Shown piece by piece: positions 660-25,692 of a stretch of DNA of 64,000 bases. A model generated the notes under the pieces. That model had not been told where the DNA came from. It was given only the letters and a program-made list of their open reading frames with translations, and did no database searches. The DNA is from Deltaproteobacteria bacterium (GTDB lineage: Bacteria > Desulfobacterota > Dissulfuribacteria > Dissulfuribacterales > QOAL01), in contig JALWYS010000065.1 in assembly GCA_027003115.1 (NCBI GenBank), positions 4,655 to 68,654 on the forward strand, in the 5' to 3' direction. Within the stretch, counting starts at the first letter, position 1, and each line of letters starts with the position of its first letter. A program made the translations under genes and the position numbers.

Positions 660-2429
660 ATGGCCAGCAAATCCAGCAGGACAAAGATAGCCCTTCTCGA
701 TCTTACCAGTTGCACTGGTTGTGAGGTGAATCTCTTGCGGCTCGGCTCAAAATTTCTTGAGCTTGCCGAACACTTTGAAATCGCAGATTGGCACATGCTT
801 CAAAGGGACAAGGATACGGACTATGATGTTGTTTTCGTTGAGGGCTTTGTGTGCAATGAAGAGCAGGAGAGGTTTTTAAGGCAGGCAAGAAGGACAAGTC
901 AGGTGCTAGTTGCCCTGGGGGCCTGCGCCATGACCGGTAACGTTTTTTCCCAGATCAAACCTGAGAAATACGAAGAGCTTAAATCAAGGGTCTATCCCCC
1001 TGGCTACCAACCTGTAACCCACTTTGTAAAGCCCGTTTCAAAGGTGGTGGATGTAGATCATGTGATTCCGGGATGTCCTGCAAGCAGTGAGGCGGCGGCA
1101 AAACTCTTTGAGGAGCTTAGCAAAAGGCCCATAACATCTCCACGGCTCAGGGTTCAGGAGCCTGACTTTGTATCAAGGATAGAAGGCCATGGCAAACTCG
1201 AAGCTGATCTTGAAAAGGGCCATGCCGTTTTTGCGCCAGAAGAAGGAGAACGGTTCGTGGAGGCCCTTGCAGTTGGCAGGCCATACTGGAGCGCTCCGAA
1301 ACTTCACAGCAGGATATGTGGCATCTGCCCGGCAGCACATACACTTTGTGCCATCGAGGCTTCCGAAAGGGCCCTGGGAATCAGGCCTTCAACACAGACC
1401 GTTTTGCTCAGAAGGCTTTTTCAGTGTGGACAGATGGTCTCAAGCCATCTTATGCATTTGTATTTAATGGTTCTGCCCTCCATTGCAGGCTTTGATTCCA
1501 GTGTGGATTTCAGCCTTGTTTATCCGGAGGAATTTAAGATATTTTTGGAGATAAAGAGGATAGCCGAGGAGATAACGGATGCCATAGGTGGCGCTCCCCT
1601 TCATGCGGTCAGCCTAGAGCCTGGAGGTTTTACCAGGGTTCCTGATGCAAAAAGGCTTTCACAACTTGGTCGTCGTATTGAAAAGGTACTCGACGACAGC
1701 CTGGATCTTGTGCGGATACTTGGCACTTTCAGGTGGCCAGAGGCCGAAACTGTTGCCCATATGCTTTGTGTTCAGCCGGAAAAAGATGAATATCCCTTCT
1801 ATGGCATGAGCCTAATACACAACGGGCCAGAGCCCGTTTCCGGCACGGACTATCAAGATCTCATAGAGGAACACACACGAAAGGGCCAGTCCGGAAAGGT
1901 GGCTTATCTCAAAGGGAAAAGGCCAGTAAAGACAGGGGCACTGTCACGGCTCTTTCGCTTTAACAGGCATCTTAATCCCCTTGCTTCTGTCATTTTCAAG
2001 GAACTTGGCATTAATTTTCAAAACCCCTTTCACAACAATCTTTCCCAGGCAGTTGAGCTCATTCACTACCTTGAGGAGGCCAGAAAGCTCCTGGCTGAGC
2101 TTGGAAAAGGGGATGTTTCAGGGGCCAAGATAGATGAAAAAAAGGTGAGGCAACAGGCGCTTTCAGGAAAAGGGCCATGGCCGAGGCGCGGGGTTGGAAT
2201 CATTGAGGCGCCAAGGGGAATACTCATTCATGACGTGGAAATTGATAAATCGGGCCTAGTTACCAATTACAATATCGTAACACCCACGGCCCTTAACCTG
2301 TCTGCCCTTGGGCCAGAGGCGGAGCTGTTTCTTCGGAAAAATCGGGATCTATCAAAGGAGAGAAAAAGGGCGGCCCTTGAGGATCTTGTGCGGGCCTCTG
2401 ACCCCTGCATCACATGTGCTGTTCACTAG
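660..2429 (+). CDS. [NiFe]-hydrogenase with a small-subunit (NuoB/HoxY-like) module fused to the large subunit in one polypeptide
   Basis: GGGAGG (645-650) lies 9 nt upstream of ATG 660. Residues 1 to about 165 carry the proximal-cluster Cys pattern C18-T-G-C21, GACAMTG and IPGCPA. The remainder carries RIEGHGK, the L1 motif RICGICPAAH (nt 1311-1340) and the C-terminal L2 motif DPCITCAVH (nt 2400-2426), followed directly by TAG. Confidence 0.85.
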   Translation: MASKSSRTKIALLDLTSCTGCEVNLLRLGSKFLELAEHFEIADWHMLQRDKDTDYDVVFVEGFVCNEEQERFLRQARRTSQVLVALGACAMTGNVFSQIKPEKYEELKSRVYPPGYQPVTHFVKPVSKVVDVDHVIPGCPASSEAAAKLFEELSKRPITSPRLRVQEPDFVSRIEGHGKLEADLEKGHAVFAPEEGERFVEALAVGRPYWSAPKLHSRICGICPAAHTLCAIEASERALGIRPSTQTVLLRRLFQCGQMVSSHLMHLYLMVLPSIAGFDSSVDFSLVYPEEFKIFLEIKRIAEEITDAIGGAPLHAVSLEPGGFTRVPDAKRLSQLGRRIEKVLDDSLDLVRILGTFRWPEAETVAHMLCVQPEKDEYPFYGMSLIHNGPEPVSGTDYQDLIEEHTRKGQSGKVAYLKGKRPVKTGALSRLFRFNRHLNPLASVIFKELGINFQNPFHNNLSQAVELIHYLEEARKLLAELGKGDVSGAKIDEKKVRQQALSGKGPWPRRGVGIIEAPRGILIHDVEIDKSGLVTNYNIVTPTALNLSALGPEAELFLRKNRDLSKERKRAALEDLVRASDPCITCAVH

Positions 2430-6191: not shown

Positions 6192-8189
6192 ATGGACACC
6201 AGCAAGAGATTCAAAAAAGGAAATAGCGGATGTCCCAGCATCCAGTGTGAGGCCAACAGAGAGGTCCTATGCAATGAATGTGCATCTGGAGTCGTTACTG
6301 CTGCCCACAGGGTGCAGAATAGGAGCGTTGAGCCTTGCCTTTTCGGTAAGGGAGGCACATGCTGCAGAAACTGCAACATGGGCCCTTGTCAGATAATAGA
6401 AGGCGTAGATGCCATGGTGGGCATCTGCGGGGCAGATGCCCCAACCGTTGTGGCAAGAAACTTTGCAAGGATCGTTGCAGGTGGTGCTGCTGCCCACATG
6501 GATCATGGAAGGGGCGTGGCCCTGGCCTTTCTTGAAACGGCCAAGGGCGAGACCCCTTACGAGATAAAGGACGGGATAAAGCTTAGGGAAACAGCACTCA
6601 GGCTCGGCATTGACCCGGGCGAGAAGTCCAAGACGGATCTAGCCATTGAGGTGGGTGAAAAGCTTGTAAGCGAGTTTGGCCAGCAAGAAGGCGCTATTTC
6701 CTTTATAAAAAGGGCACCTCAGCCAAGGCAAGAGCTCTGGCAAAAATTGGGTGTCACGCCCAGAGGGGTTGACCGAGAGGTCGTTGAGATGATGCACAGG
6801 ACCCACATGGGTGTTGACCAGAATTACAAAAACATCCTGCTTCAGGCGGCAAGGTGCGCCCTTGCAGATGGCTGGGGGGCTTCCATGATAGCTACCGAGC
6901 TTTCAGACATCATGTTTGGAACCCCGGTGCCAATCCGCACCAAGGTCAACATAGGAGTGCTTAAGAAGGATGAAGTCAACGTAACTGTGCACGGCCATGA
7001 GCCTGTTCTGGCAGAGGCGCTGGCAATGGTGGCCAACGATCCTGAAATTGTTGCCGAGTGCAAGAAGGTCGGCGCAAAGGGTGTAAATCTAGCAGGTGTT
7101 TGCTGTACTGGTAACGAAATCCTTATGAGAAGAGGGCTTCCCATTGCAGGAAGCTTTGTGCAGCAGGAGGTTGTCCTTGCAACAGGCGCTGTAGAGGCCA
7201 TGGTGGTTGACGTGCAGTGTATCATGCAGGGCGTCTCCCCTGTCTCCAAGAATTACCATACCCAGCTCATAACCACCTCAGAAAAGGCCAAGATCACCGG
7301 TGCAAAGCACGTACAGTTCCATGAAGACAAGGCCCTGGACGTGGCTAAGGAAATCATCAAGATGGCCATTGCCAAGTTCCCTGAGCGTGGCAAGTACTGT
7401 ATACCAAGACATGAGATGGACGTTGTAGCGGGCTTCAGTCACGAGACAATAAACTACATCCTTGGTGGACGCTTCCGCGCATCTTACAAGCCACTCAACG
7501 ACAACATTATTAACGGAAGGATCCGTGGAGTTGCTGCAATAGTTGGCTGTGACAACTACCGCGTCATGGATGAGGTGCATGTTGAGCTTGCAAAAGAGCT
7601 CATTGCAAATGACGTGTTGGTTCTTGTCACGGGATGCGCTGCAACAGGAATAGGAAGGGCCGGGCTCCTGTCCCCTGAGGCAATGGAGATGGCAGGAGAC
7701 GGGCTGAAGGAGGTCCTTGAGGCGGTTGGCTGCCCACCGGTTCTCCACATGGGTTCCTGCGTGGACAACAGCAGGCTTCTTATTGCTGCAACTGAAATGG
7801 TACACACTGGCGGTCTTGGTAACGACATAAGCGATATTCCAGTGGTGGGCTGTGCTCCTCAGTGGATGAGCGAAAAGGCCGTGTCCATTGGTCAGTATTT
7901 CGTTTCAAGTGGAGCCTACGTCGTATTTGGTCCGAGTTTCCCCACAACGGGCTCTCAGGTTGTTACGGACTTTTGTTTCAAGCAGATGAATGACATTTAC
8001 GGTGGCTGCTGGGATCTTGCCCAGGGCGCCAACGAGTTCGCAGACAAGATGATCGACAAGATTAATGAAAGAAGAAAGGCCCTTGGCCTGGATAAGAAGA
8101 AAGAGCGCGTGCTCTTTGACATGGCCATGAGGCGTGAGCTAGGCTCTGGCATACCTGGAATGGGTTGTTCTCCAGGAGGTCACAGCTGA
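6192..8189 (+). CDS. cooS: anaerobic Ni-dependent carbon monoxide dehydrogenase catalytic subunit (CooS/AcsA)
   Basis: AAGGAG RBS. The B/D-cluster Cys pattern is EPCLFGKGGTCCRNCNMGPCQI, with typical CODH length and downstream motifs (HGHEP, CCTGNE, GSCVDN). An extra N-terminal CX4CX7CX2C stretch lies at 6231-6281. Confidence 0.9.
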   Translation: MDTSKRFKKGNSGCPSIQCEANREVLCNECASGVVTAAHRVQNRSVEPCLFGKGGTCCRNCNMGPCQIIEGVDAMVGICGADAPTVVARNFARIVAGGAAAHMDHGRGVALAFLETAKGETPYEIKDGIKLRETALRLGIDPGEKSKTDLAIEVGEKLVSEFGQQEGAISFIKRAPQPRQELWQKLGVTPRGVDREVVEMMHRTHMGVDQNYKNILLQAARCALADGWGASMIATELSDIMFGTPVPIRTKVNIGVLKKDEVNVTVHGHEPVLAEALAMVANDPEIVAECKKVGAKGVNLAGVCCTGNEILMRRGLPIAGSFVQQEVVLATGAVEAMVVDVQCIMQGVSPVSKNYHTQLITTSEKAKITGAKHVQFHEDKALDVAKEIIKMAIAKFPERGKYCIPRHEMDVVAGFSHETINYILGGRFRASYKPLNDNIINGRIRGVAAIVGCDNYRVMDEVHVELAKELIANDVLVLVTGCAATGIGRAGLLSPEAMEMAGDGLKEVLEAVGCPPVLHMGSCVDNSRLLIAATEMVHTGGLGNDISDIPVVGCAPQWMSEKAVSIGQYFVSSGAYVVFGPSFPTTGSQVVTDFCFKQMNDIYGGCWDLAQGANEFADKMIDKINERRKALGLDKKKERVLFDMAMRRELGSGIPGMGCSPGGHS

Positions 8190-8199
8190 TTCGGTTTGG

Positions 8200-8226
8200 T
8201 GCCGGCAACCTCGAGGGGGGCCGGCA
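8200..8226 (+). other. intercistronic GC hairpin between cooS and hdrA
   Basis: TGCCGGC (8200-8206) pairs with GCCGGCA (8220-8226) around a 13-nt loop. The T-rich tract follows only after 4 nt, so the role (partial terminator or stability element) is unresolved. Confidence 0.3.
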
Positions 8227-8267
8227 AGCCTTTTAAGTTTAAATTTTAAGGACTTGGAGTTGAGATA

Positions 8268-11200
8268 ATGGCAAAAAGCGGTTCAATATTGGTCCTTGGA
8301 GGAGGCGTGGCTGGTGTTCAGGCTGCGCTGGACCTTTCCGAGCTTGGCTATTACGTCTACCTTGTGGAGAAAAAGGCGTCCATTGGCGGGGTTATGGCCC
8401 AACTGGACAAGACCTTTCCCACAAATGACTGTTCGTTGTGAATTTTAGCTCCCAAGCTTGTTGAGGCCGGTCGGTCTCCAAATATCGAAATACTCACAAA
8501 TGCCAAGTTAGAGGCCCTTGAGGGAAAGCCTGGAAGCTTTATTGCAAGGATTTACCAGGAACCCAGGTACATAAACGAGGATTTGTGCACTGCCTGCGGC
8601 ATGTGCACCATGTACTGTCCAAGGCCCGTGGTGGACACCTACAACGAGCGTCTGGACATTACAAGGGCCCCTCATATAGATTACGCTCAGGCGATTCCAT
8701 CCAGCTACTACATTGATGCAAAGGCGTGTCTCAGGGTGAACTATGAGACGTGTAACCTTTGTGCCCAGACCTGTACAGCAGGGGCCATAGACTTTACCCA
8801 GCAGCCAAAGGAACTGGATCTGAGTGTGGGTGCCGTGGTGCTGGCCCCTGGATTTGGCCGGGTTGACGAAAAGGTGCTGGAGAAGTTCGGTTATGGACGA
8901 TACCCGGATGTGCTCACATCCTTTGAGTTTGAAAGACTGACCTGTGCCTCTGGGCCAAGCGAAGGTCACATTGTTCGTCCATCGGACAACAAGCGCCCGA
9001 AAAAGATCGCCTTTCTCCAGTGCATAGGTTCAAGGGACGAGACCTGCGGAAACGGTTACTGTTCTTCCGTATGCTGCATGTACGCAATAAAGGAGGCCTC
9101 GGTCGCCAAGGAGCATGAGCCTGATCTTGACATATCCATCTTTTTCATGGACGTGCGTACCATGGGAAAGGGCTTTGATGATGCCAGAAAGCGCGCCCAG
9201 GAAAAATACGGCATAAATGTCATACGGGCAAGGGTTCCTAGGGTTGACCAAGTGGATGGAAAGCTTGCCCTTACCTGGACAACAGGTGACGGAGAGCACC
9301 ACTCCGGCCTTTTTGACATGGTTGTCCTCTCTGTTGGGCTTGAATCCCCGGAGGATGCCGATCTCATCTCCCGGGTGGCAGACATAGAGCTCAACCACTA
9401 TAATTTCTGTCGCACTTCAGTGGATGCGCCCCTTGTTTCTTCCAGAAACGGGGTGTTGGTGGCAGGTGCCTTCCAGGGGCCAAAGGACATCCCTGAATCT
9501 GTAACCCAGGCATCGGGTGCGGCCGCCATAGCCTCGGAACTGCTGGCAGAAGCAAGAAACAGCCAGACCGTAACGGTGACATACCCGGAAGAGGACAAGG
9601 CCCTTGAGGAGGAAGAGCCGCGCATTGGTGTTTTCGTCTGTCACTGCGGTGTGAATATCGCTGGAGTGGTGGATGTAAAGGCAGTGCGTGACTACGCAGG
9701 CACCCTTCCTGGGGTGGTGCTTTATGAGGACACGCTTTACTCCTGCTCACAGGATGCCCTTAAATCAATAGCTGAAAAGATCAAGGAGAACAGGCTAAAT
9801 AGGGTGGTCATATCCGCCTGTTCCCCAAGGACCCACGAGCCGCTCTTCCAGGAGACGCTTCGCTCCATAGGTCTTAATCCTGCCCTTGTGGAGATGGCCA
9901 ATATCAGGGACCAGTGTGCATGGGTCCATGCCCAGGAACCTGAAAAGGCCACGGAGAAGGCAAAGGACCTTGTTCGTATGGCCGTTGCAAAGGCACGGCT
10001 TCTTGCCCCCCTTGAACAGCCCACTGTGGATGTGACCCCATCCGCCCTTGTAATCGGCGCAGGCGCTGCAGGCATGTCTGCGGCCCTTTCCATAGCAGAT
10101 CAGGGTTACAAGGTGGTGCTCGTGGAAAAGGGAAGATCCCTTGGCGGAAACCTCAAGAGGCTTACCTGGACACTGGATGGACAGGATGCCTCCAAGGTCT
10201 TAAAAGACATGGTCAAGAAGGTAAAGGCCCACAGGAATATAGAAGTGCTGACCTCGGCCCAGGTAGAGTCTGTTTCCGGATACGTTGGAAACTTTACCAG
10301 CACCATAAGCAAGGGCGGCAAGACCCAGATGATAAACCACGGTGTAATAGTGCTTGCGACTGGTGGCCGTGAGTACAAGCCAAAGGGCTATGGCTACGGG
10401 GACAGCACCAGGGTCATGACCCAGCTAGAGCTGGAGGAGAAACTCGCCAGGGGCAAGGGTTTTTTAAGAAATGCCAAGAACGTTGTGATGATTCAGTGTG
10501 TCGGCTCCCGTGGAGACGACATGACCCACTGCAGCAGGCTTTGCTGCACCCAGGCGGTCAAAAATGCCTTGAAGCTCAAGGAGGCAAAGCCTGAGGTCAA
10601 CGTCTTTGTATTCTATAGAGACATGAGGACCTACGGCTTCTATGAGGATCTATACAGGGAAGCAAGGAAGAAGGGCGTAAAGTTCATTCGTTATACCTCC
10701 GACAGGAAGCCCGAGGTGATAAAGCTTTCCCGCGGCATAAAAGTAAGGGCCTACGATGAACTCATTGGCGATGACATAGAAATACCAGCAAGCCTTGTTG
10801 TCCTTTCAACAGGAATTGCACCTGGGGATAACCAGGAGCTTTCAAAAATTATCAAGGCACCCCTTACTTCAGATGGATTCTTCCTTGAGGCACATGCAAA
10901 GCTCAGGCCTGTGGAGGTGGCTGTTGACGGTGTTTACCTTTGCGGACTTGCCCACGGGCCAAAGAGCCTTGAGGAGTCGGTGGCACAGGCCAAGGCGGCT
11001 GCAGCCAAGGCCACCATTCCCCTTGCCAAGGGAAAGGTAGCGGTTGCTCCCATAGTATCAAAGGTGAATCAGGACCTCTGTATTGGCTGTGGTATTTGTG
11101 AAAGCCTCTGCCCCTTCAATGCCATAACTCTTGAGAAGGTTGGCAAGCGGAAAAAGGCCCGTACCATCACGGCCTCTTGCAAGGGTTGTGGAATCTGTGC

Positions 11201-11303
11201 CTCCCACTGTCCCACCATTGCCATATCCATGGGGGGCTTTACAGACGAGGCCATCATGGCCCAGATCCATGCCTTTTCGCCAGAAGGATGCGAGGAGGAA
11301 TAG
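8268..11303 (+). CDS. hdrA: HdrA-like heterodisulfide reductase subunit A; selenoprotein (UGA at 8439-8441) with a tandem two-module architecture of about 1011 aa
   Basis: ATG 8268 opens [68 protein letters not shown]. The frame is the same as ORF 8583..11303 and has no other stop. The TGA sits where the HdrA DCS(M/L)C-ILxPK motif has Cys/Sec. The second half repeats the HdrA N-terminal domain ([12 protein letters not shown]), an FAD fold ([14 protein letters not shown]) and a C-terminal 2x[4Fe-4S] ferredoxin. Confidence 0.88.
8463..8478 (+). promoter_or_regulatory. candidate bacterial SECIS apical hairpin for the hdrA UGA
   Basis: GAGGCC-GGUC-GGUCUC forms a 6-bp stem (one G-U pair) with a GGUC loop. 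The loop starts 30 nt after the U of UGA at 8439. Confidence 0.5.
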
Positions 11304-11306
11304 GGC

Positions 11307-12110
11307 ATGGCGCAGGAAAACGTTTTGGAAAAGGAGAACGAGATGGCCCAGGAGGGTTTTGAACCGAGGATATTGGGTTTTTTCTGCCACTGGTGCTGTT
11401 ACGCTGCTGCAGATGCAGCCGGTGTTTCAAGGTACCAGTACCCCCCGAACGTGCGTGTCATAAGGGTCATGTGTACAGGCAGGATAGACACACGTTTTAT
11501 CCTTGAGGCCTTCAGGTGCGGAGCAGACGGGGTCTTTACCGGCGGCTGACACCTCGGGGAGTGTCATTACCAGTCTGGTAATTACGAGGCAATGATAGTG
11601 GCAGAAACCTGCAAGCAGTTCCTTGCAGACTGTGGCATCAATCCTGACCGCCTTACCCTGGAGTGGGCATCTGCAGCAGAGGCGCCCCGATTCGTGGAAC
11701 TCATTACCGGTTACGTAAACAACATCAAGGAAAAGGGTGAGATAGGCGCTGCGGAAGGGGAGGTGGACTCTGCGACCATCAAGCGCAGGCTCAAGGCAGC
11801 GGTCAAGGCTGCTGAGGCAAGAAAGCCTAGGAGTGCCCTAGGTATGTTGGCCAAGAAGCTTCATAAGGATGGTGAATATTCAAAGGAGGCCATAGCCAAG
11901 GGTGTTTCCTCAAAGATTGTTCCTGCCCTCCGTGCAGAAAGGATCAAGGAGGAGATGATACTTCTCCTTAGGGATGGGCCCATGGATATTGATGCGCTCT
12001 GCAGTGCCCTTTCTGCAAAGAAAGAAGAGGTGGAAAAGCCCCTTTCACAGCTGCAGAAAAAGGGTGTTGTCGAGGAGCAGGATGGAAAGTTCAAACTTAC
12101 AGGCAAATAA
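11307..12110 (+). CDS. mvhD: MvhD-like (methyl-viologen-reducing hydrogenase delta subunit family) selenoprotein with a C-terminal extension; UGA at 11547-11549
   Basis: ORFs 11307..11549 and 11592..12110 share a frame and are joined by an open stretch. The sequence [37 protein letters not shown]...[19 protein letters not shown] aligns to the MvhD GCHxGDCHY motif, with TGA at the first Cys. GAGGAGG lies upstream of ATG 11307. Confidence 0.88.
11552..11589 (+). promoter_or_regulatory. candidate SECIS hairpin for the mvhD UGA
   Basis: The outer stem pairs CCUCG (11552-11556) with CGAGG (11585-11589). The inner perfect 7-bp stem pairs AUUACCA (11566-11572) with UGGUAAU (11576-11582) around a GUC loop. 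The loop lies 26 nt after the UGA. Confidence 0.6.
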
Positions 12111-12132: not shown

Positions 12133-12684
12133 ATGACTGTTCAAGCCGCTAAACTAAACAGTGATTTTATCAAGGACATAGCCGCCCATGAAGGGTGTGA
12201 GACCGCGGCCATGTGTTTTTCATGTGGCTCCTGTAGCGGCGTGTGTCCTGTAGAAAAGGTGGTGGATGATTTTGATCCGCGTAAGATCGTCCATATGGTG
12301 GGTCTTGGTATGGAGGATTCATTGATTAACGGTGAGACCATCTGGGCATGTTCTCAGTGCCAGAGCTGCATACCCGTTTGTCCCCAGAATGTTAGGTGCG
12401 CAGACATCATAAAGGCCCTAAGGGACGAGGCTCTTAAGCGAAAAAGCGTTGATCAGGAGCGTCTTAAGGCTCTTGGTCTCTTTGCAGTGGTTGATCCGGG
12501 AAAGTGCGTGGCCTGTCTCACCTGCGTAAGGCTTTGCCCCTTTGGGGCACCTTCCATGACCGAGGAGGGATACGCCGTGATAGAACCGGATCTTTGCCAT
12601 GCCTGTGGAATATGTGTGCTTGACTGTCCGGCACAGGCTATCTCGCTTGCGCCGTCACTTGAGGCAAAGGGGGCACAACAATGA
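12133..12684 (+). CDS. HdrC-like iron-sulfur protein fused to an extra 2x[4Fe-4S] ferredoxin domain
   Basis: Four CxxCxxCxxxCP-type motifs: CFSCGSCSGVCP, CSQCQSCIPVCP, CVACLTCVRLCP and CHACGICVLDCP. The first pair has HdrC-like spacing. Confidence 0.7.
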   Translation: MTVQAAKLNSDFIKDIAAHEGCETAAMCFSCGSCSGVCPVEKVVDDFDPRKIVHMVGLGMEDSLINGETIWACSQCQSCIPVCPQNVRCADIIKALRDEALKRKSVDQERLKALGLFAVVDPGKCVACLTCVRLCPFGAPSMTEEGYAVIEPDLCHACGICVLDCPAQAISLAPSLEAKGAQQ

Positions 12685-13046
12685 GCAAGATAAAGGGCTT
12701 TTGCTGTAACTATACCCTGAGCGTTGAGGTGGATGCTCTTAAAGAGGAGGGCCTTGTGCCAGAGGATCTTGAGATAGAAAGGCTTCCATGTACCGGGAGG
12801 TTAGAGGTTCCCGAGATACTGGATGCCTTCACCCAGGGGGCTGAGGCGGTTTTCGTTGTAGGCTGCCAGGTGGATAAGTGTCATAACCTTTCAGGTAGTT
12901 ACCGGGCATCAAAAAGGGTCAAGTATGCCAAGAAAATCCTTGAGGAACTTGATATGAATCCAGACCTTGTGGAGATGTTTTTTGCAGGGCGAGGAGAGAC
13001 AGAGCCAGTGGTAGAGGCTGCAAGAACCATGGCATCCAGGGCCTAG
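12681..13046 (+). CDS. mvhD: second MvhD/FlpD-family protein (all-Cys version)
   Basis: The pattern FCCNYT...LPCTGRLEVPEILDAFTQGAEAVFVVGCQVDKCHN parallels the MvhD fold and its Cys ligands. The start overlaps the upstream stop (ATGA). Confidence 0.8.
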   Translation: MSKIKGFCCNYTLSVEVDALKEEGLVPEDLEIERLPCTGRLEVPEILDAFTQGAEAVFVVGCQVDKCHNLSGSYRASKRVKYAKKILEELDMNPDLVEMFFAGRGETEPVVEAARTMASRA

Positions 13047-13097
13047 GATGGATGCCTTCAGGAATTAAAAGCATATAGGCTTTTGGAGTAAGGTCAC

Positions 13098-13766
13098 ATG
13101 ATAATAGCAGAAAGAAAACCCATGAAGGAGCTGCTGGAGATGGTCTCCGATGTAAAGAAGCTCCTGATAGTAGGCTGCCGGGGTTGCGTGGCAGTTTGCT
13201 CTGCAGGAGGCGACAAGGAGGTCAGCATCCTTTCAGCAGCATTGAGGCTTGGAGTTAAAAGGGCCGGTGGTGAAATAGAGATCCATGAAGATACCCTGGT
13301 TCGTCAGTGTGATCCAGAATACATAGATCCATTGAATGACAAGGGGGCAAAGTACGATGCAGTCCTTTCAATGGCGTGTGGCGTTGGGGTCAATTTTGTT
13401 GCCGACAGGTGTCCGGATGTAAATGTGCTGCCTGCTTTAAACACCACCTTTTACGGGGCAAATCTTTCAAGTGGGGAGTGGAAAGAGATGTGTGCAGGCT
13501 GTGGGGCCTGCGTCCTTCACCTGACTGGAGGCCTTTGCCCTGTGGCCAGGTGTGCAAAAAGCCTTTCCAACGGCCCGTGCGGCGGTTCCCAGGGTGGAAG
13601 ATGTGAGATCAACCCCGATGTGGACTGTATTTGGCAACAGATTTACGACAAACTATCCAGTATGAACCGTAAAGAGGAGCTCAGGCAGATTATGCCCATG
13701 AGGGACTGGACTACTGCTGGACATGGAGGGCCACGTCGGAGAATAAGGGAGGACTTGCTACCGTGA
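13098..13766 (+). CDS. metV: MetV, Cys-rich small subunit of acetogen-type methylene-THF reductase
   Basis: The N-terminus MIIAERKPMKELLEMV plus many Cys motifs (GCRGCVAVCS, CAGCGAC, CPVARCAK, GPCGG) are typical of MetV. It sits immediately 5' of metF with an overlapping TGATG junction. Confidence 0.8.
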   Translation: MIIAERKPMKELLEMVSDVKKLLIVGCRGCVAVCSAGGDKEVSILSAALRLGVKRAGGEIEIHEDTLVRQCDPEYIDPLNDKGAKYDAVLSMACGVGVNFVADRCPDVNVLPALNTTFYGANLSSGEWKEMCAGCGACVLHLTGGLCPVARCAKSLSNGPCGGSQGGRCEINPDVDCIWQQIYDKLSSMNRKEELRQIMPMRDWTTAGHGGPRRRIREDLLP

Positions 13767-16700
13767 TGTCTGGAAGCAATTTTGAAAACGTACTTCGTTC
13801 TGGGACCTTTGCAGTCACAGGCGAATTGGGGCCACCCAAAAGCGGCGATATGGAAGTTGTCAGGAGAAAGGCCAGGATTCTAAAGGGCCATGTGGATGCC
13901 GTAAACATCACAGACTGTCAGACTGCAATCGTGCGGATGTCGAGCCTTACTGCAGGTCTCATTGCCCTGTCTGAAGGGGTTGAGCCTGTCATGCAGATGA
14001 CCTGCCGTGACCGTAACAGAATCGGCATGCAGGCAGACATCCTTGGAGCCTCTGCCCTTGGAATAAAGAATCTTCTGTGTCTTACAGGCGACCATCAAAA
14101 GTTTGGGAATCATCCCCAGGCCAAGGGTGTCTTTGATATGGACTCCATTCAGCTCCTCCAGATGGTCAGGGGCATGAGGGATGAAAAACGGTTTCAGTGT
14201 GGCGAGGAGATAAAGAAGGCTGAGCCAAAACTCTTTCTTGGGTGTGCGGCAAATCCCTTTGCGGATCCCTTTGAGTTCAGACCTGTCAGGCTTGCAAAGA
14301 AGGTGGATGCAGGGGCAGACTTTGTCCAGACCCAGATCATATATAATGTGGAAAAGTTCAAGAAGTTCATGGAGATTGCCAGGGATCTTGGCCTCCATGA
14401 AAGGTGCTTCATACTGGCAGGTGTGACACCACCAAAGTCCCTGGGAATGGCCAGGTACATGAAGAAATTTGTTCCTGGGCTGGATGTTACGGACGATGTC
14501 ATACAACGTCTTCAGGACGCCAAAGACCAGAAGGAAGAGGGCATTGACATCTGTGTAGACATCATCAAGCAGGTCCAGGATATTCCAGGGGTTTCCGGTG
14601 TTCATGTAATGGCCATTGAGTGGGAAGAGGCTGTACCCGAGATAGTAAAGAGGGCAGGCCTTTCACAAAGGCCAGAACCCAAGGGCATAGAGCCTGTTCT
14701 TACAAGCGGTAGTGCCATTGACGAGGCAGTTGAAAAGGCCCGCAGGGAGGCCAGGCTTGAGCTTGAGGGCGAGCTTGAAAAGGTGAAGGCCGAGGCACAG
14801 GCCTCAAGAGATCTGCTGGCAAAAGAAAAAGAGAAGGTTGCCTCTGAGATTTCAAATCTCAAGAAGCAGGTAGAGGAGGCAAAGAGCATGGTAAGCCGTA
14901 AGGAGGCTGAAATACAAAAACTTACTGAGGAATTGCAAAAGGCAAAAGAGGCAGCTTTAGACACAGCTGCCCAAGCACCTGCAGCCTCTAAAGAGGCAAT
15001 AGCCGGAGAACAGGAGGCCACCGTTACGGTTTCTTCCGGCGCTTTGAGTGCCAGGGAACAGCAGGTGCTGAGTTCACTCAACAAGGGGCTTGTTGCCCTT
15101 AAGGAAGTCTTGGGGCTGAATGACGCCCAGTTCGAGGCCATGAGACGGTTCCTTGAGGCGGAGTTCATGCTCCAGCTTGGAACTGTAGTAAGGGAAACTA
15201 CACAGGTTGCGGAGGCTCCCCGGGTACAGCCTGAGGCGCCACCTGCCCCGGCTACCGAGGCACCTGTTGTGGAACCAGTGGAGGAGACAAGGCCTGCGGA
15301 AGAAGAAAAACCGCAAAGGCCCAAGGAGGTTGTGAATCTGGTTGCCCAGGGCAATGTGGCCCTTCATGCCAAGGATTTCAAGAAGGCCCTTGAGCTGTTT
15401 AAAAAGGCCCTTGAGATTTCCCCTGAAGATGAGAAGGCCAAGGAAGGGCTTGAAGCGGCAAGAAAAGCCCTTTTAGAGGAGAAAGAGGCAGCAGATAAGG
15501 CAGTGAAAATCAAGGAGGTTGAAGGTCTTCCTCCATGCCCTGAAGAGATAGACCCGGATGAGTGGAAGCGCAAGTGGATAATTCGTTTTACAGCCCGTGG
15601 TAACGTTGCCCTTATGAAGGGCGACTTTGAAACTGCAAAGAAGGAGTTTCAAAAAGCCCTTGATCTTGATCCAGATTATGAAAAGGCAAAGGATGGCCTA
15701 GCCAGGGCCGAAAAGGGCGAAGACATATTCGTACCTGATGTGAAGCCAGGCGAGGTTGAGGCTGCAGCTCCTGCCCCTGAAGAGAAAAAGATAGAGAAAG
15801 AGGTTGTAGAGGCAAAAGAGGAAAAGCCTGTTAAAGAGGAAGCTGTTGAGGAGAAACCGGCTCCGCCAAAAGAGGCAAAGGAAGAGGAAGTAAAAGAGGC
15901 ACCAAAGCCCAAGGCAAAGGTTGAGATAAGTGCTCCTGCCGGAGAGGGCGTCGGAGATCTGGAAGTGGCTCCGTTTCCAAAGGATGAGCCGCCACTTGAA
16001 GAGCGAGCCAAGGGTATTCCTGAGGAGGTTTACAAGGAGCCGTGCACTGGAGTTATTCAGAGTGTGACAATAGGGGATGGAGACAAGGCCATTACAGTGG
16101 GAGGAGAGACGGCCCTGCCTTTCCATGCCTTTGAAGGCGATATTCCCAACCTTCCAAGGACGGCCTTTGAGGTGCTCGATTCCCCACCCGAGGAATGGCC
16201 CGAAGTGCTCCTCAAGTATTATTCCGACGTTGTAAACGATTCAGCGGCCTGGGCCAGAAAGTGTGTCAACGAGTTTGGCGCCCAGGCAATATGTCTGTCC
16301 CTTGATTCAACAGATCCCAATGGTGCCAACGTGTCATCAGCGGATGCCGCCCAGGTGGCCAAAAAGGTCATAGAGGCCGTTGATGTTCCCATCATCCTGT
16401 GGGGCTGTGGTAATGCTGAAAAGGACACCGAGACCTTGCGTGAGATAACAGGGCTTGTTGAAAATAGAAATGTTTGTATAGGTCCTTTGACCGACGCCAA
16501 CTACCGCACCCTTGGGGCAACGGCCATGGCATTTCAGTATCCTGTTGTGGCCTCTACTCCCATAGATGTAAACCTTGCAAAACAGCTGAATATTCTCCTC
16601 GAAAACCTGGGTGTTCATCTAGACCATATCCTAATGGATCCGTCCATTGGCGCTGTGGGTTACGGGCTTGAGTACACCTATTCTGTAATGGAGAGAATAA

Positions 16701-16951
16701 GACTTGCTGCACTTACCCAGCAGGACGAGAAATTGTCACCGCCCATTATATGTAACCTGGGAAGAGAGGTATGGAAGGCCAAGGAAACAAGGCTTCCAAC
16801 CGATGCCGAGCTTGGCGACCAGGAGAAAAGGGGCGTGCTTATGGAGGCAATTACCGCCTCAACCCTCCTTCTTGCAGGGGGAGAGTTGACTGTTATGCGG
16901 CATCCAAAGGCCATAAACCTTACAAACGTCCTTGTTGAAGGGATGTTGTAA
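13763..16951 (+). CDS. metF-acsD: fusion protein: methylene-THF reductase MetF (aa 1 to about 300), a linker of about 450 aa (coiled coil, TPR-like, Pro/Glu/Lys-rich), and corrinoid Fe-S protein small subunit AcsD (aa about 750-1062)
   Basis: One uninterrupted 1062-codon ORF; the start is GTG 13763 or ATG 13766. The N-terminus (FAVTGELGPPKS, NITDCQTAIVRMSS, MQMTCRDRNR, LCLTGDH) is MetF. The C-terminus from about nt 16010 (TVGGETALPFHAFEG, PIILWGCGNAEKD, VASTPIDVNLAKQLN, MDPSIGAVGYGLEYTYS, VMRHPK) is AcsD/CfsB. Confidence 0.85.
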   Translation: MMSGSNFENVLRSGTFAVTGELGPPKSGDMEVVRRKARILKGHVDAVNITDCQTAIVRMSSLTAGLIALSEGVEPVMQMTCRDRNRIGMQADILGASALGIKNLLCLTGDHQKFGNHPQAKGVFDMDSIQLLQMVRGMRDEKRFQCGEEIKKAEPKLFLGCAANPFADPFEFRPVRLAKKVDAGADFVQTQIIYNVEKFKKFMEIARDLGLHERCFILAGVTPPKSLGMARYMKKFVPGLDVTDDVIQRLQDAKDQKEEGIDICVDIIKQVQDIPGVSGVHVMAIEWEEAVPEIVKRAGLSQRPEPKGIEPVLTSGSAIDEAVEKARREARLELEGELEKVKAEAQASRDLLAKEKEKVASEISNLKKQVEEAKSMVSRKEAEIQKLTEELQKAKEAALDTAAQAPAASKEAIAGEQEATVTVSSGALSAREQQVLSSLNKGLVALKEVLGLNDAQFEAMRRFLEAEFMLQLGTVVRETTQVAEAPRVQPEAPPAPATEAPVVEPVEETRPAEEEKPQRPKEVVNLVAQGNVALHAKDFKKALELFKKALEISPEDEKAKEGLEAARKALLEEKEAADKAVKIKEVEGLPPCPEEIDPDEWKRKWIIRFTARGNVALMKGDFETAKKEFQKALDLDPDYEKAKDGLARAEKGEDIFVPDVKPGEVEAAAPAPEEKKIEKEVVEAKEEKPVKEEAVEEKPAPPKEAKEEEVKEAPKPKAKVEISAPAGEGVGDLEVAPFPKDEPPLEERAKGIPEEVYKEPCTGVIQSVTIGDGDKAITVGGETALPFHAFEGDIPNLPRTAFEVLDSPPEEWPEVLLKYYSDVVNDSAAWARKCVNEFGAQAICLSLDSTDPNGANVSSADAAQVAKKVIEAVDVPIILWGCGNAEKDTETLREITGLVENRNVCIGPLTDANYRTLGATAMAFQYPVVASTPIDVNLAKQLNILLENLGVHLDHILMDPSIGAVGYGLEYTYSVMERIRLAALTQQDEKLSPPIICNLGREVWKAKETRLPTDAELGDQEKRGVLMEAITASTLLLAGGELTVMRHPKAINLTNVLVEGML

Positions 16952-21534: not shown

Positions 21535-21560
21535 ATGGTGGGTCATTCCCACCATTTTTG
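21535..21560 (+). terminator. intrinsic-terminator-like hairpin between acsE and fdhA
   Basis: ATGGTGGG (21535-21542) pairs with CCCACCAT (21548-21555) around a 5-nt loop and is followed by TTTT. Only about 17 nt remain before the fdhA ATG. Confidence 0.55.
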
Positions 21561-21576
21561 TATGGAAAGGTTGCAA

Positions 21577-24500: not shown

Positions 24501-25692
24501 CGCCTCCTCCAAAAATTCCCTTATCCTCTACGGCCTTGGAGTTGCCGAGCACAAGGGTGGCACGGCCGGGGTAATAGCTCTGGCAAACCTTGTCCTGGCA
24601 ACAGGTCAGGTAGGCAAGCCCCACAGCGGCATAAATCCGCTAAGGGGGCAGAACAACGTGCAGGGAGCCTGCGACATGGGGACCTTGCCTTACACCTTCC
24701 CGGGTTATCAGCCAACTGATGATCCAAAGGTGCTTGAGAAATTTTCCAATGCCTGGGGAGTGAGCAGTCTTCCGGTATCAGACGGCCTTCTTGAGCCCCA
24801 GATGTACGATGCGGCCCTTGAGGGCCGATTCAAGGCACTTTACTGTGTAGGTTACGACCCTGCCCAGACCCAGTCTAACATTGGCAAGGTGCACGAGGCG
24901 CTAAAGGCCATGGATCTTGTGATGGTTCAGGATCTCTTTCTCACGGAAACAGCCAAGTTTGCCCATATTGTCCTGCCATCTGCCTGTTTCTATGAAAAGG
25001 ATGGTACCTTTACAAGTGGTGAGCGACGGGTAAGACGTGTCAACAAGGTCATAGATCCGCCTGGAAAAGCAAAGGCAGACTGGGAAATAATTTGTCTCGT
25101 TTCCCAGGCCACTGGATATCCCATGTTTTATACTGGGCCTGAGCAGATAATGGCAGAAATAGCAAGGGTGACCCCGGCCTATGCAGGTATCAGCTACGAC
25201 AGGCTTGGGGACAACGGAATGGTCTGGCCATGTCCCTCTCCCGACCATCCGGGAACCCCACTTCTCCATACGGGAAGTTTCCCGAGGGGTAAGGGTACAT
25301 TTGTGCCTGTCTCCTATATCATTCCAGAAGAGGAGGCTGATGAAGAGTATCCCTTTGTTCTCATTACCGGAAGGCGGTTGGAACATTACAACAACGGTTC
25401 CATGACTAGACGCTGCGAGGGATTTGACCGGCTGTGTCCAGAGGAGCTGGTGGAGATAAATCCGGAAGATGCGGCACGGCTCAAGGTGGAAGATGGAGCC
25501 GTGGTTAAGGTGGAATCAAGACGTGCCAGAATAAAGGCCAGGGTCAAGGTCACAGAAAGAAGTAAGCCTGGGGTGGTGTTTATGACCTTCCACCATCAGG
25601 ACACCTTGACCAACTTCCTTACGAGTCCTGGCATGGACGCCAAGACCCTAACTCCTGAATACAAGGTGTGCGCAGTGAGAATCAAACCATAA
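21577..25692 (+). CDS. fdhA: selenocysteine formate dehydrogenase, single-polypeptide fusion (2Fe-2S ferredoxin + GltD/NfnB-like NAD(P)H-FAD module + 4Fe-4S domains + Mo/W-bisPGD catalytic domain); UGA at 24049-24051
   Basis: ORFs 21535..24051 and 24142..25692 are in the same frame with an open junction. The junction reads NNVDNCARV-TGA-HAPSVSGL, the classic FdhA Sec site. The N-terminus has CYLEGG...CLLC...C (2Fe-2S). Next come CRAPCNLTCPGG...GRVCPRFCETRC, VAIIGGGPAGLSCA and VLVVGGGDIAVDAA (GltD-like), then CIGCTRCLRSC, CVSCGACVDACP and CTYCGTGCSL. I prefer the start MAESIKI at 21577. Confidence 0.9.
24064..24080 (+). promoter_or_regulatory. SECIS hairpin for the fdhA UGA
   Basis: GUCAGC-GGUCU-GCUGGC forms a 6-bp stem (one U-G pair). 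The loop starts 21 nt after the UGA and closely resembles the E. coli fdhF apical GGUCUGC element. Confidence 0.75.

What the first reader, a model, noticed from the sequence alone, without database searches (positions are those of the whole stretch)
8268..11303. HdrA is a UGA-recoded selenoprotein and a tandem (two-module) HdrA of about 1011 aa
Seen in the sequence:
- The 57 codons from ATG 8268 (GGGVAG Rossmann motif, ...TFPTNDCSL) end at TGA 8439-8441. They continue in the same frame with no other stop (ILAPKLVE...) into ORF 8583..11303.
- A GAGGCC-GGUC-GGUCUC hairpin follows about 25 nt downstream.
- After the first FAD module comes a complete second HdrA: N-terminal FeS domain [15 protein letters not shown] fold [18 protein letters not shown] in place of CSLU, and a C-terminal 2x[4Fe-4S] domain.

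Established: HdrA is a known selenoprotein family in methanococci and Deltaproteobacteria, with Sec replacing a conserved Cys near the bifurcating FAD.

Inference:
- An intramolecular pseudo-dimer, with one Sec module and one Cys module, could replace the HdrA homodimer of methanogen complexes.
- Automated callers will truncate this gene.
Basis: partly seen in the sequence, partly recalled or inferred. Interest (0 to 1): 0.65.

Follow-up and report, generated by a model that had tools for sequence, protein, structure and literature searches.

The report
Selenocysteine-recoded fused double HdrA gene
The gene at 8268-11303 is a real selenocysteine-containing, two-module HdrA flavoprotein, read through an in-frame UGA, that sits in a CO2-fixation (Wood-Ljungdahl) gene cluster; this type of protein is already described, and gene callers routinely cut it in two.

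Summary
The core of the finding holds. ATG 8268 opens a frame with a single in-frame stop, TGA 8439-8441, and it runs to TAA 11303 (1011 codons).

The TGA lies in the column of Cys197 of solved HdrA, which is Sec197 in Methanococcus maripaludis HdrA. Across 80 related loci plus the window, that codon is TGA 30 times, TGC 31 times and TGT 30 times, and never TAA or TAG.

The hairpin GAGGCC-GGUC-GGUCUC (8463-8478) meets the published bacterial SECIS rules. It forms fully in 27/30 TGA loci but in only 1/61 Cys loci.

- Module 2 is not a complete HdrA. It lacks both the inserted ferredoxin domain and the CxxC/U motif.
- CSRLCC matches module 1's own CSSVCC, not CSLU.

The two modules are complementary. 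This is the BamE-type "fused HdrA dimer" described in 2022 and solved in 2026.

Sec-containing HdrA, BamE and MvhD are documented in Deltaproteobacteria. What differs here is the context: hdrA-mvhD(Sec)-hdrC-like-mvhD-metV-metF with no hdrB.

Verdict: a real and ordinary new member of a known kind. It is mis-annotated as 57 aa + 900 aa in a 98%-identical genome. The Sec machinery could not be checked.

The parts
8256..8259 (+). Shine-Dalgarno-like GGAG, 8 nt before the ATG
   Evidence: Read directly from the sequence.
8268..11303 (+). Complete recoded hdrA-like gene: 1011 codons, one in-frame UGA, TAA stop
   Evidence: Translation. phmmer to solved HdrA gives E = 3.7e-196 in three stretches.
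8430..8441 (+). C55-S-L-U58 redox motif (CxxU). It corresponds to HdrA Cys194/Cys197 and BamE Cys59/Cys62.
   Evidence: Ungapped alignment of aa 7-109 to 5odc_A 146-248. 9sfi_A has X at the same column. Sec197 and its selenylsulfide are described in PMC13518236. The BamE Cys59-Cys62 disulfide is described.
8439..8441 (+). Sec codon UGA (codon 58)
   Evidence: In 80 related loci plus the window the codon is TGA 30, TGC 31, TGT 30, and never TAA or TAG.
8458..8481 (+). SECIS element. Upper stem is 8463-8468 / 8473-8478 and the apical loop GGUC is 8469-8472. There is a possible 3-bp lower stem, 8458-8460 / 8479-8481, with a UU bulge.
   Evidence: Core hairpin is -8.5 kcal/mol. It meets the published bSECIS constraints: loop 3-9 nt, stem 4-16 bp, G in the first two loop positions, 16-37 nt spacing, MFE at or below -7.5 (PMC13188914). 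All six pairs form in 27/30 TGA loci against 1/61 Cys loci, and the GGUC loop occurs in 26/30 against 2/61. Synonymous sites are frozen only in TGA loci.
8268..9587 (+). Module 1 (aa 1 to about 440): a thioredoxin-reductase-like FAD domain with the inserted ferredoxin domain. It has no HdrA N-terminal domain and no C-terminal ferredoxin domain. It carries E222 and K275, which correspond to HdrA E356 and K409.
   Evidence: aa 7-428 align to 5odc_A 146-567. The E356/K409 bifurcation markers come from PMC9430772. E222 and K275 are invariant in alignment A1.
8565..8822 (+). Inserted 2x[4Fe-4S] ferredoxin domain of module 1 (approximately aa 100-185)
   Evidence: Pfam Fer4_16 hit at aa 107-171. Aligned to the HdrA inserted domain. 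Invariant Cys: C107, C110, C113, C117, C154, C162, C165, C169.
9618..10037 (+). Module 2, HdrA N-terminal (MvhD-like) FeS domain (aa about 451-590)
   Evidence: aa 449-599 align to 5odc_A 2-152. Invariant Cys: C458, C460, C493, C518, C550.
10038..11042 (+). Module 2, second thioredoxin-reductase-like FAD domain. It has no inserted ferredoxin domain and no CxxC motif.
   Evidence: aa 583-682 align to 8rvu 144-244 and aa 689-1003 to 8rvu 327-652, with nothing matching 245-326. It is 25-30% identical to module 1. G597, G599, G602, C744, C755, C759 and C760 are invariant.
11043..11276 (+). Module 2, C-terminal 2x[4Fe-4S] ferredoxin domain
   Evidence: Pfam Fer4 / Fer4_7 / Fer4_21 hits at aa 931-988. 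Aligned to HdrA 568-647.
11307..12110 (+). Partner gene: a long MvhD/BamF-like adaptor (267 aa) with its own in-frame UGA at 11547-11549 (GG-U-HLGECHY)
   Evidence: Translation. FlpD Pfam hits on both halves. VhuD NCBIfam hit. An MvhD-like gene is present in 74 of 81 related loci, usually right after hdrA. The same column is TGA 13 / TGY 15 in related loci.
12133..16951 (+). Inferred partners in the same gene string: an HdrC-like polyferredoxin (12133-12684), a second MvhD (12681-13046), MetV (13098-13766) and a MetF-TPR-CdhD fusion (13763-16951)
   Evidence: Pfam and NCBIfam hits. The order fhs-folD-cooS-hdrA-mvhD-fer4-mvhD-metV-metF-acsB is conserved in 11 Thermodesulfobacteriota loci that show every gene, and in a few more that are cut by contig ends.

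Best explanation
8268-11303 is one gene for a 1011-residue selenoprotein. It is a fused, asymmetric 'double HdrA' of the BamE type.

Recoding. UGA 8439-8441 is decoded as selenocysteine, with the help of a SelB-type SECIS hairpin at 8463-8478 inside the coding sequence.

Architecture.
- Module 1 (aa 1 to about 440) is a thioredoxin-reductase-like FAD domain. It carries the bifurcation signature (E222, K275), the C55xxU58 pair and the inserted 2x[4Fe-4S] ferredoxin domain.
- Module 2 (aa about 450-1011) supplies the parts module 1 lacks. These are the N-terminal FeS domain, whose cluster in canonical HdrA is completed by Cys197 of the partner protomer, and the C-terminal 2x[4Fe-4S] ferredoxin domain. 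It also has a second FAD domain without CxxC or an inserted domain.
- The single chain therefore reproduces one functional half of the HdrA homodimer: 2 FAD and 7 predicted [4Fe-4S] clusters.

Inferred mechanism, by homology with M. maripaludis HdrA and with BamE.
- The Cys55-Sec58 selenylsulfide/selenolate switch relays electrons between the module-2 N-domain cluster and the module-1 flavin.
- The flavin bifurcates. The low-potential branch goes to the inserted ferredoxin domain and on to ferredoxin. The high-potential branch goes through the TrxR-domain cluster to the acceptor.
- From gene order, the acceptor here is most likely MetV/MetF (methylene-tetrahydrofolate reduction, or the reverse reaction), not HdrBC.

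What is shown and what is inferred.
- Shown: the frame, the Cys/Sec column, the comparative SECIS evidence, the domain map and the synteny.
- Inferred: actual Se insertion, which FAD bifurcates, the electron donor, and coupling to MetVF.
For: Frame and TGA.

Sec column:
- Ungapped alignment places U58 at Cys197 of 5odc_A and at X/Sec197 of 9sfi_A.
- Cys is present in all seven full-length homologues aligned.
- The codon is TGA 30 / TGC 31 / TGT 30 with no other stop.
- The peptide upstream of the TGA is invariant while its third codon positions vary.

SECIS:
- It satisfies the published bSECIS constraints.
- Hairpin register is 27/30 against 1/61, and the GGUC loop is 26/30 against 2/61.
- Third-position entropy in the five hairpin codons is 0.2-0.6 bit in TGA loci against 1.0-1.95 in Cys loci.
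- The Desulfospira variant GGAUGUC-GGUC-GACAUCC keeps the loop while three of the seven stem pairs change and still pair, two of them on both sides.

Code and other selenoprotein genes:
- UGA is not reassigned: 12 of 42 long ORFs end in TGA.
- The window holds two more in-frame TGAs in classic selenoprotein motifs: MvhD GG-U-H and FdhA CARV-U-H.

Architecture and context:
- Domain map.
- Published precedent: complementary fused HdrAs, the BamE structure, Sec-BamE, Sec-HdrA and Sec-MvhD in D. multivorans, hdrA-hdrA fusions in Sec operons.
- Context: conserved fhs-folD-cooS-hdrA-mvhD-...-metV-metF-acsB synteny, and the Hdr-type methylene-THF reductases of Moorella and Sporomusa.
Against: - No selA, selB, selD or tRNA-Sec lies in the 64 kb, so the machinery is unverified.
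- The hairpin is not thermodynamically exceptional on its own (z = -1.35 and -0.27).
- Rfam has no matching family, so no curated model could be applied.
- Module 2 also keeps residues that align with the E/K signature (E723, K765). Calling its flavin non-bifurcating therefore rests only on the BamE structure.
- No hdrB/CCG gene is present in the window, so the high-potential route differs from every characterised Hdr complex.
- MetVF coupling is inferred from gene order only. In Sporomusa the equivalent proteins did not co-purify as a tight complex.
Confidence: 0.8

Rival explanations
1. The TGA is a true stop. Either the gene is a pseudogene, or it is two genes: a 57-aa peptide plus a protein of about 900-950 aa that starts internally.
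For: This is how mechanical ORF calling and public annotation treat it. No Sec machinery is visible in the window.
Against: - The same TGA is kept in 30 sites across orders of Thermodesulfobacteriota and beyond, and it is never TAA or TAG.
- The upstream 57 codons are under purifying selection.
- Annotated downstream starts differ between orthologues, giving 890-972 aa, so no internal start is conserved.
- A product starting at 8583 would lack the GGGVAG Rossmann motif and the CxxU pair.
- The hairpin co-varies with the TGA state.
Confidence: 0.04
2. The UGA is read through, but not as selenocysteine. Possible routes are near-cognate Cys or Trp insertion, or a lineage-specific code change.
For: Cys is functionally acceptable at this column, since 61 of 91 homologous sites encode it. 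The sel genes are unverified.
Against: - TGA terminates 12 of 42 long ORFs in the window.
- The element downstream fits the SelB-type SECIS rules and is conserved at synonymous sites only where the codon is TGA.
- The family is an established CxxU selenoprotein family, and Sec has been seen in a solved structure at this residue.
Confidence: 0.05
3. It is a Sec-recoded fused HdrA, but it does not serve MetVF. It would feed another enzyme of the cluster (CODH/ACS, the NfnB-like-FdhA fusion, or the fused NiFe hydrogenase at 660-2429), or an unlinked HdrBC/DsrC-type acceptor.
For: - In most related loci outside the Thermodesulfobacteriales-like group, only mvhD is linked to the tandem hdrA, and metVF is not.
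- BamE-type proteins serve very different enzymes.
- cooS lies directly upstream.
Against: - hdrA-mvhD-...-metV-metF are contiguous and on the same strand, with gaps of 52 nt or less or overlaps, and the order is conserved in 11 or more loci.
- MetVF-linked HdrA/MvhD is an established arrangement in Moorella, Sporomusa and Chloroflexi, with pull-down support.
Confidence: 0.2

Closest known systems
Selenocysteine-containing HdrA of Methanococcus maripaludis (PDB 9sfi; PMC13518236), and the Cys form in M. thermolithotrophicus (5odc)
   Same: - Identical CxxU/CxxC column: U58 corresponds to Sec197 / Cys197.
- Same FPTxDCxxU-ILAPK motif and same TrxR-like FAD domain with the E356/K409 equivalents.
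- Same N-terminal, inserted and C-terminal FeS domains.
- An MvhD/VhuD partner that is also a selenoprotein.
   Different: - Canonical HdrA is a single four-domain module that homodimerises and works with HdrBC. Here two diverged modules (25-30% identical) are fused, and each accessory domain is kept once.
- No hdrBC lies nearby.
- The SECIS is bacterial and in-frame, rather than an archaeal 3'-UTR SECIS.
- Scores fall below the NCBIfam HdrA cut-offs.
BamE of class II benzoyl-CoA reductase (Geobacter metallireducens cryo-EM preprint; Sec-containing BamE in Desulfococcus multivorans)
   Same: - About 1000 aa and described as a 'fused HdrA dimer'.
- The N-terminal TrxR1 carries the CxxC pair (BamE Cys59/62, here C55/U58), the Lys at the flavin (Lys280, here K275) and the inserted ferredoxin domain.
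- The second TrxR has a Gln (Gln768, here Q762 by offset).
- Seven [4Fe-4S] clusters are expected.
- It is followed by a long MvhD-like adaptor with a wHTH-like tail that is a selenoprotein.
- A homologue with 60% identity is annotated 'bamE-related'.
   Different: - No bamBCD or bamGHI genes are present. The neighbours are Wood-Ljungdahl genes and metVF.
- No HdrBC-like BamD is present.
- The Sec of the adaptor sits at GG-U-H (residue 81), whereas BamF has Sec19.
- BamE of Geobacter has Cys, not Sec, at this column.
HdrA of the Hdr-type methylene-THF reductase (MetVF-HdrABC-MvhD) of Moorella thermoacetica and Sporomusa ovata
   Same: - hdrA-mvhD-metV-metF are linked within a Wood-Ljungdahl context.
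- The HdrA has two TrxR-like domains, the C-terminal one lacking the inserted ferredoxin domain.
- HdrA and FrhD/MvhD are both listed among the selenoproteins of Moorella, but it was not checked whether that HdrA is the MetVF-linked copy.
- Bacillota loci of this family are colinear with the window protein at about 50% identity (L069, L071).
   Different: - The Moorella HdrA (163 kDa) carries a GltD/NAD(P)H insertion.
- The Sporomusa HdrA (101 kDa) has no inserted ferredoxin domain at all and five predicted clusters.
- Both operons encode HdrB and HdrC. The window has only an HdrC-like polyferredoxin, a second MvhD, and MetF fused to a CdhD-like domain.
Fused and tandem HdrA paralogues of ANME archaea (HdrA3/4, 5/6, 12/13; Chadwick et al. 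2022)
   Same: Complementary loss of the N-terminal domain in one module and of Cys197 in the other. This was interpreted as a built-in heterodimer.
   Different: The module order is reversed: in ANME HdrA3/4 the N-terminal module has the N-domain and lacks Cys197. Those proteins are Cys forms and sit in different gene contexts.

Membership tests
HdrA selenoprotein family (CxxU) | The in-frame UGA aligns with the conserved Cys/Sec column of HdrA | tested here: met
   U58 corresponds to Cys197 of 5odc_A (ungapped) and to X (Sec197) of 9sfi_A. The CxxU motif is listed for HdrA in PMC13188914.
HdrA selenoprotein family (CxxU) | Homologues alternate only between Sec (TGA) and Cys (TGY) at that codon | tested here: met
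   TGA 30, TGC 31, TGT 30, no TAA or TAG. Full-length homologues carry Cys.
HdrA selenoprotein family (CxxU) | [quoted passage not shown] | tested here: met
   Loop GGUC, 6-bp stem, 27 nt spacing, -8.5 kcal/mol (rules). Comparative association with the TGA state. No curated covariance model exists in Rfam.
HdrA selenoprotein family (CxxU) | The genome encodes selA, selB, selD and tRNA-Sec | not testable with these tools
   None is found in the 64-kb window, and the rest of the genome is not available. Indirect support: two further in-frame TGAs sit in the MvhD and FdhA Sec motifs.
HdrA selenoprotein family (CxxU) | Selenium is actually incorporated at the residue | not testable with these tools
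   Needs 75Se labelling or mass spectrometry.
Canonical HdrA of HdrABC heterodisulfide reductase | Single four-domain module that scores above the curated family cut-off | tested here: not met
   There are two modules. NCBIfam scores: HdrA2 1017.6 against a cut-off of 1100, HdrA 732 against 1400, and 701 against 1300.
Canonical HdrA of HdrABC heterodisulfide reductase | Encoded with HdrB (CCG domains) and HdrC | tested here: not met
   No CCG-domain protein was found among the ORFs of 150 aa or more scanned across the window. Only an HdrC-like N-half is present at 12133-12684 (70.8 bits against a cut-off of 160).
BamE-type fused HdrA pseudo-dimer | Two TrxR-like FAD domains in one chain. The N-terminal one has CxxC/U and the inserted Fd domain, and the C-terminal one has the N-domain and the C-terminal Fd domain. 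| tested here: met
   Domain map. It matches the description and the complementarity rule.
BamE-type fused HdrA pseudo-dimer | Bifurcation signature (Glu and Lys at the flavin) in TrxR1, and Gln at the second flavin | tested here: inconclusive
   E222 and K275 correspond to E356 and K409 and are invariant. Q762 fits BamE Gln768 by offset only. Module 2 also keeps the aligned E723 and K765, so the sequence alone does not settle which flavin bifurcates.
BamE-type fused HdrA pseudo-dimer | Part of a benzoyl-CoA reductase gene set (bamBCD, bamGHI) | tested here: not met
   The neighbours are fhs, folD, cooS, mvhD, metV, metF, acsBCDE and fdhA. It has the same architecture as BamE but is not BamE in the strict sense.
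Hdr-type methylene-THF reductase (MetVF-HdrABC-MvhD) | hdrA, mvhD, metV and metF are co-linear in one gene string | tested here: met
   The order is conserved in 11 or more related loci.
Hdr-type methylene-THF reductase (MetVF-HdrABC-MvhD) | HdrB and HdrC subunits are present | tested here: not met
   No hdrB is present, only an HdrC-like ferredoxin.
Hdr-type methylene-THF reductase (MetVF-HdrABC-MvhD) | Physical complex and methylene-THF reductase activity | not testable with these tools
   Needs biochemistry. Even in Sporomusa only pull-down interactions were seen.

The most novel reading that the evidence does not exclude
In this Thermodesulfobacteriota lineage, the following proteins may form a previously uncharacterised, HdrB-less type of electron-bifurcating methylene-THF reductase: the Sec-containing BamE/BamF-like pair (HdrA-MvhD), an HdrC-like polyferredoxin, a second MvhD, MetV, and a MetF that is fused through a TPR/coiled linker to an AcsD/CdhD-like corrinoid-protein subunit. 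In this complex the high-potential branch would go straight to MetVF, and the enzyme would be physically tethered to the corrinoid iron-sulfur protein of the acetyl-CoA synthase.
Probability: 0.3. Interest if true: 0.55.

Novelty: new member of a known kind. Interest (0 to 1): 0.3.

Why it matters
For annotation:
- This gene and its mvhD neighbour are split in public records. A 98%-identical genome lists them as 57 + 900 aa and 80 + 172 aa.
- The closest 59 protein clusters are N-terminally truncated, so they lack the FAD-binding Rossmann motif and the redox-active CxxU pair.
- Metabolic reconstructions of sulfur-disproportionating and sulfate-reducing Thermodesulfobacteriota therefore miss an intact bifurcating module inside the Wood-Ljungdahl cluster.

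For mechanism:
- A family in which Sec and Cys forms alternate between close relatives, in a single-chain asymmetric HdrA, offers natural variants for testing that role.
- None of this is new in kind. Sec-HdrA, Sec-BamE, Sec-MvhD and fused complementary HdrAs are all published.

Tried and rejected
- Rfam at gathering threshold on the whole window gave nothing. Rfam at E up to 10 on 8380-8560 gave only chance hits (sX9, MIR477). No curated bacterial SECIS model matched.
- ARAGORN found no tRNA or tRNA-Sec in the window.
- Pfam scans of every ORF of 150 aa or more found no SelA, SelB, SelD and no HdrB/CCG protein. The size-matched candidates at 52166-53578 and 53715-55655 turned out to be glutamine synthetase and GlnD.
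- Single-sequence thermodynamics did not distinguish the hairpin from shuffles, so I relied on comparative evidence instead.
- The PDB sequence search found no BamE entry, so residue equivalences with BamE rest on numbering offsets from the preprint.
- The NCBIfam HdrA models all scored below their cut-offs.
- The promoter/terminator scan around 8000-8700 gave nothing relevant to an internal start.
- I considered an AlphaFold model to test the pseudo-dimer. I dropped it because the tool returns no coordinates or contacts, so it could not test the Sec58-to-N-domain-cluster proximity.


Full report
**1. What is in the sequence**

ATG 8268 is preceded by GGAG at 8256-8259. It opens a frame of 1011 codons with exactly one internal stop, TGA at 8439-8441 (codon 58), and the frame ends at TAA 11301-11303. 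Mechanical ORF listing splits this into 8268..8441 (57 aa) and 8583..11303 (906 aa, TTG start). The stretch between the TGA and the TTG reads [47 protein letters not shown], which is ordinary HdrA sequence.

**2. Is the TGA a Sec codon?**

- phmmer against all PDB chains hits HdrA at E = 3.7e-196.
- Residues 7-109 align without gaps to 146-248 of M. thermolithotrophicus HdrA (5odc_A). This puts codon 58 on Cys197 in the motif FPTNDCSIC-ILAPKM.
- In M. maripaludis HdrA (9sfi_A) the same column is 'X'. The accompanying paper identifies it as Sec197, which forms a selenylsulfide with the neighbouring Cys between cluster A3 and FAD (PMC13518236).
- In the 5.8-billion-protein search, the closest 59 clusters are 890-972 aa and cover 88-94% of the query. 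Full-length proteins of 1004-1058 aa appear from 63% identity downward.
- When aligned, the full-length proteins all read [19 protein letters not shown]. The short ones begin M(V)EAGRSPN or MAPKLVEAG, immediately after the Sec column.
- I then fetched 80 genomic loci and read the codon directly. It is TGA 30 times (including the window), TGC 31 times and TGT 30 times, and never TAA or TAG.
- The 15 codons before it are invariant at the protein level, while their third positions vary.
- TGA terminates 12 of 42 long ORFs in the window, so UGA is not reassigned genome-wide.

**3. The hairpin**

GAGGCC (8463-8468), GGUC (8469-8472), GGUCUC (8473-8478) forms a 6-bp stem with a 4-nt loop, at -8.5 kcal/mol. 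The loop begins 27 nt after the UGA.

This satisfies the published bacterial SECIS constraints: loop 3-9 nt, upper stem 4-16 bp, G in the first two loop positions, spacing 16-37 nt, MFE at or below -7.5 (PMC13188914).

On its own the fold is not unusual (z = -1.35 for the core and -0.27 for 62 nt). The case therefore rests on comparison:

- All six pairs form in that register in 27/30 TGA loci, against 1/61 Cys loci.
- The loop is GGUC in 26/30 TGA loci, against 2/61 Cys loci.
- Third-codon-position entropy across the five hairpin codons (GAG GCC GGU CGG UCU) is 0.2-0.6 bit in TGA loci and 1.0-1.95 bit in Cys loci. Flanking codons show mostly 0.8-1.9 bit in the TGA loci, similar to the Cys loci.
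- The peptide there is fixed as EAGRSP only in the TGA loci.
- A Desulfospira paralogue has GGAUGUC-GGUC-GACAUCC. The loop is the same, and three of the seven stem pairs differ yet still pair, two of them changed on both sides.
- Two outliers (L034, L067) have a different hairpin closer to the UGA.

The loop GGUC is the same tetranucleotide as in the E. coli fdhF SECIS (my own recollection, not tested here).

**4. Anatomy: two complementary modules, not two complete HdrAs**

- Module 1 (aa 7-428) aligns to HdrA 146-567. This is the thioredoxin-reductase-like FAD domain including the inserted 2x[4Fe-4S] ferredoxin domain. It has no N-terminal domain and no C-terminal ferredoxin domain.
- Residues 449-599 align to the HdrA N-terminal FeS domain (2-152).
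- Residues 583-682 and 689-1003 align to HdrA 144-244 and 327-652. This is a second FAD domain from which the inserted ferredoxin domain (about 245-326) is missing, followed by the C-terminal 2x[4Fe-4S] domain.
- The two FAD domains are only 25-30% identical to each other.
- Where module 1 has [16 protein letters not shown], module 2 has [16 protein letters not shown], with no Cys.
These are the Cys of the TrxR-domain cluster, not the CSLU motif.
- Cluster-binding Cys of all domains, and both GxGxxG motifs, are invariant in the family alignment. This predicts 2 FAD and 7 [4Fe-4S] clusters.
- E222 and K275 correspond to E356 and K409, the residues used to recognise bifurcating HdrA flavins.
- Module 2 retains the aligned E723 and K765, and also Q762.

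**5. What is already known**

- In canonical HdrA, Cys197 of one protomer completes the N-terminal-domain cluster of the other. Fused or tandem HdrAs with complementary loss of Cys197 and of the N-terminal domain were interpreted as built-in heterodimers, and the MetFV-associated HdrA of Moorella was named as an example (PMC9012536).
- The cryo-EM structure of Geobacter class II benzoyl-CoA reductase describes BamE as 'a fused HdrA dimer'. It has a bifurcating FAD (Lys280) in TrxR1, a non-bifurcating FAD (Gln768) in TrxR2, clusters E1-E7, a Cys59-Cys62 disulfide switch, and a long selenoprotein MvhD-like adaptor, BamF.
- The window protein's C55/U58, K275 and Q762 follow the BamE residues at offsets of 4-6.
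- Sec-encoding BamE, HdrA, MvhD and FdhA with SECIS are listed for Desulfococcus multivorans.
- Sec-HdrA and Sec-MvhD are listed for Desulfobacterium autotrophicum.
- Sec-HdrA, Sec-FrhD/MvhD and hdrA-hdrA fusions in Deltaproteobacteria, and HdrA and FrhD as Moorella selenoproteins, were reported in 2006.
- A homologue with 60% identity is annotated 'benzoyl-CoA reductase-related protein bamE'.
- The architecture is widespread. 597 pattern-matched stretches in species-representative genomes encode relatives, and the best 80 span Thermodesulfobacteriota, Bathyarchaeia, Chloroflexota, Methanomassiliicoccales and Bacillota.

**6. Context and likely function**

The gene sits in a Wood-Ljungdahl string:

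- fhs (3216)
- folD (5214)
- cooS (6192)
- hdrA
- an MvhD/BamF-like gene with its own in-frame UGA (11307-12110)
- an HdrC-like polyferredoxin (12133)
- a second mvhD (12681)
- metV (13098)
- a metF-TPR-cdhD fusion (13763)
- acsB, acsC and acsE
- an NfnB-like-FdhA fusion with UGA at 24049

This order is conserved in 11 loci that show every gene, and in a few more that are cut by contig ends. They include Thermosulfurimonas dismutans S95, Thermodesulfatator, Caldimicrobium and Dissulfuribacterales. An MvhD-like gene accompanies the tandem hdrA in 74 of 81 loci. No hdrB is present in the window.

By analogy with the Hdr-type methylene-THF reductases of Moorella and Sporomusa and with the BamE wiring, I infer the following mechanism. 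[quoted passage not shown] The Cys55-Sec58 pair relays them at the module-1 flavin. Bifurcation then sends one electron to ferredoxin through the N-domain cluster and the inserted ferredoxin domain, and the other to MetVF. The donor, the coupling to MetVF and the identity of the bifurcating flavin are inference.

**7. Annotation consequence**

In assembly GCA_054006455.1, which is 98% identical, the gene is called as 57 aa + 900 aa and the mvhD gene as 80 + 172 aa.

**8. Verdict**

The object is a new, unannotated member of a well-described kind. What is mildly distinctive is the HdrB-less MetVF context and the fused MetF-CdhD neighbour.

Noticed in passing
window 11307-12110 (+), TGA at 11547-11549: The MvhD/BamF-like gene directly downstream is also interrupted by an in-frame TGA (…GVFTGG-U-HLGECHY). 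It carries a C-terminal extension of about 120 aa with weak winged-helix hits. In related loci the same column is TGA 13 times and TGY 15 times. It is annotated as 80 + 172 aa in a sister genome.
   Followed up: partly
window 21535-25692 (+), TGA at 24049-24051: One frame joins an N-terminal 2Fe-2S + GltD/NfnB-like FAD/NAD(P) + 2x[4Fe-4S] region to a formate dehydrogenase alpha subunit, across a TGA in the classic CARV-U-HAPS motif. A hairpin GUCAGC-GGUCU-GCUGGC places GGUC 22-25 nt from the UGA. This is a third probable selenoprotein gene in the window.
   Followed up: partly
window 13763-16951 (+): MetF (aa 7-299) is fused through a coiled/TPR region to a CdhD/AcsD-like domain (aa 768-1005), giving 1062 aa in total. 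The fused frame (818-1100 aa) recurs in nine related Thermodesulfobacteriota loci, including T. dismutans S95. In seven other lineages MetF is a stand-alone protein of about 310-340 aa.
   Followed up: partly
window 660-2429 (+): A single 589-aa ORF joins a NiFe-hydrogenase small-subunit domain (Oxidored_q6, aa 18-150) to a large subunit. Its best matches are to sulfhydrogenase/Frh/Vhu-type models, all below their cut-offs. It ends in DPCITCAVH, with Cys rather than Sec. It could be the electron-input hydrogenase for the HdrA-MvhD module.
   Followed up: no
window 12133-13046 (+): An HdrC-like/QmoC-like N-half is fused to a 2x[4Fe-4S] ferredoxin (183 aa), and its end overlaps by 4 nt the start of a second, short, Cys-type MvhD (121 aa). 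No HdrB/CCG-domain protein is encoded anywhere in the window.
   Followed up: partly
window 53715-56278 (-): The GlnD uridylyltransferase domain is split between two overlapping ORFs: 55565-56278 (profile positions 2-35) and 53715-55655 (profile positions 42-140). This suggests a frameshift or an assembly error in glnD.
   Followed up: no
L019 versus protein P0101: A MAG assigned to Desulfocapsa sulfexigens has TGA at the Sec column, whereas the protein from D. sulfexigens DSM 10523 has Cys. Sec/Cys exchange at this site seems to occur between close relatives.
   Followed up: no
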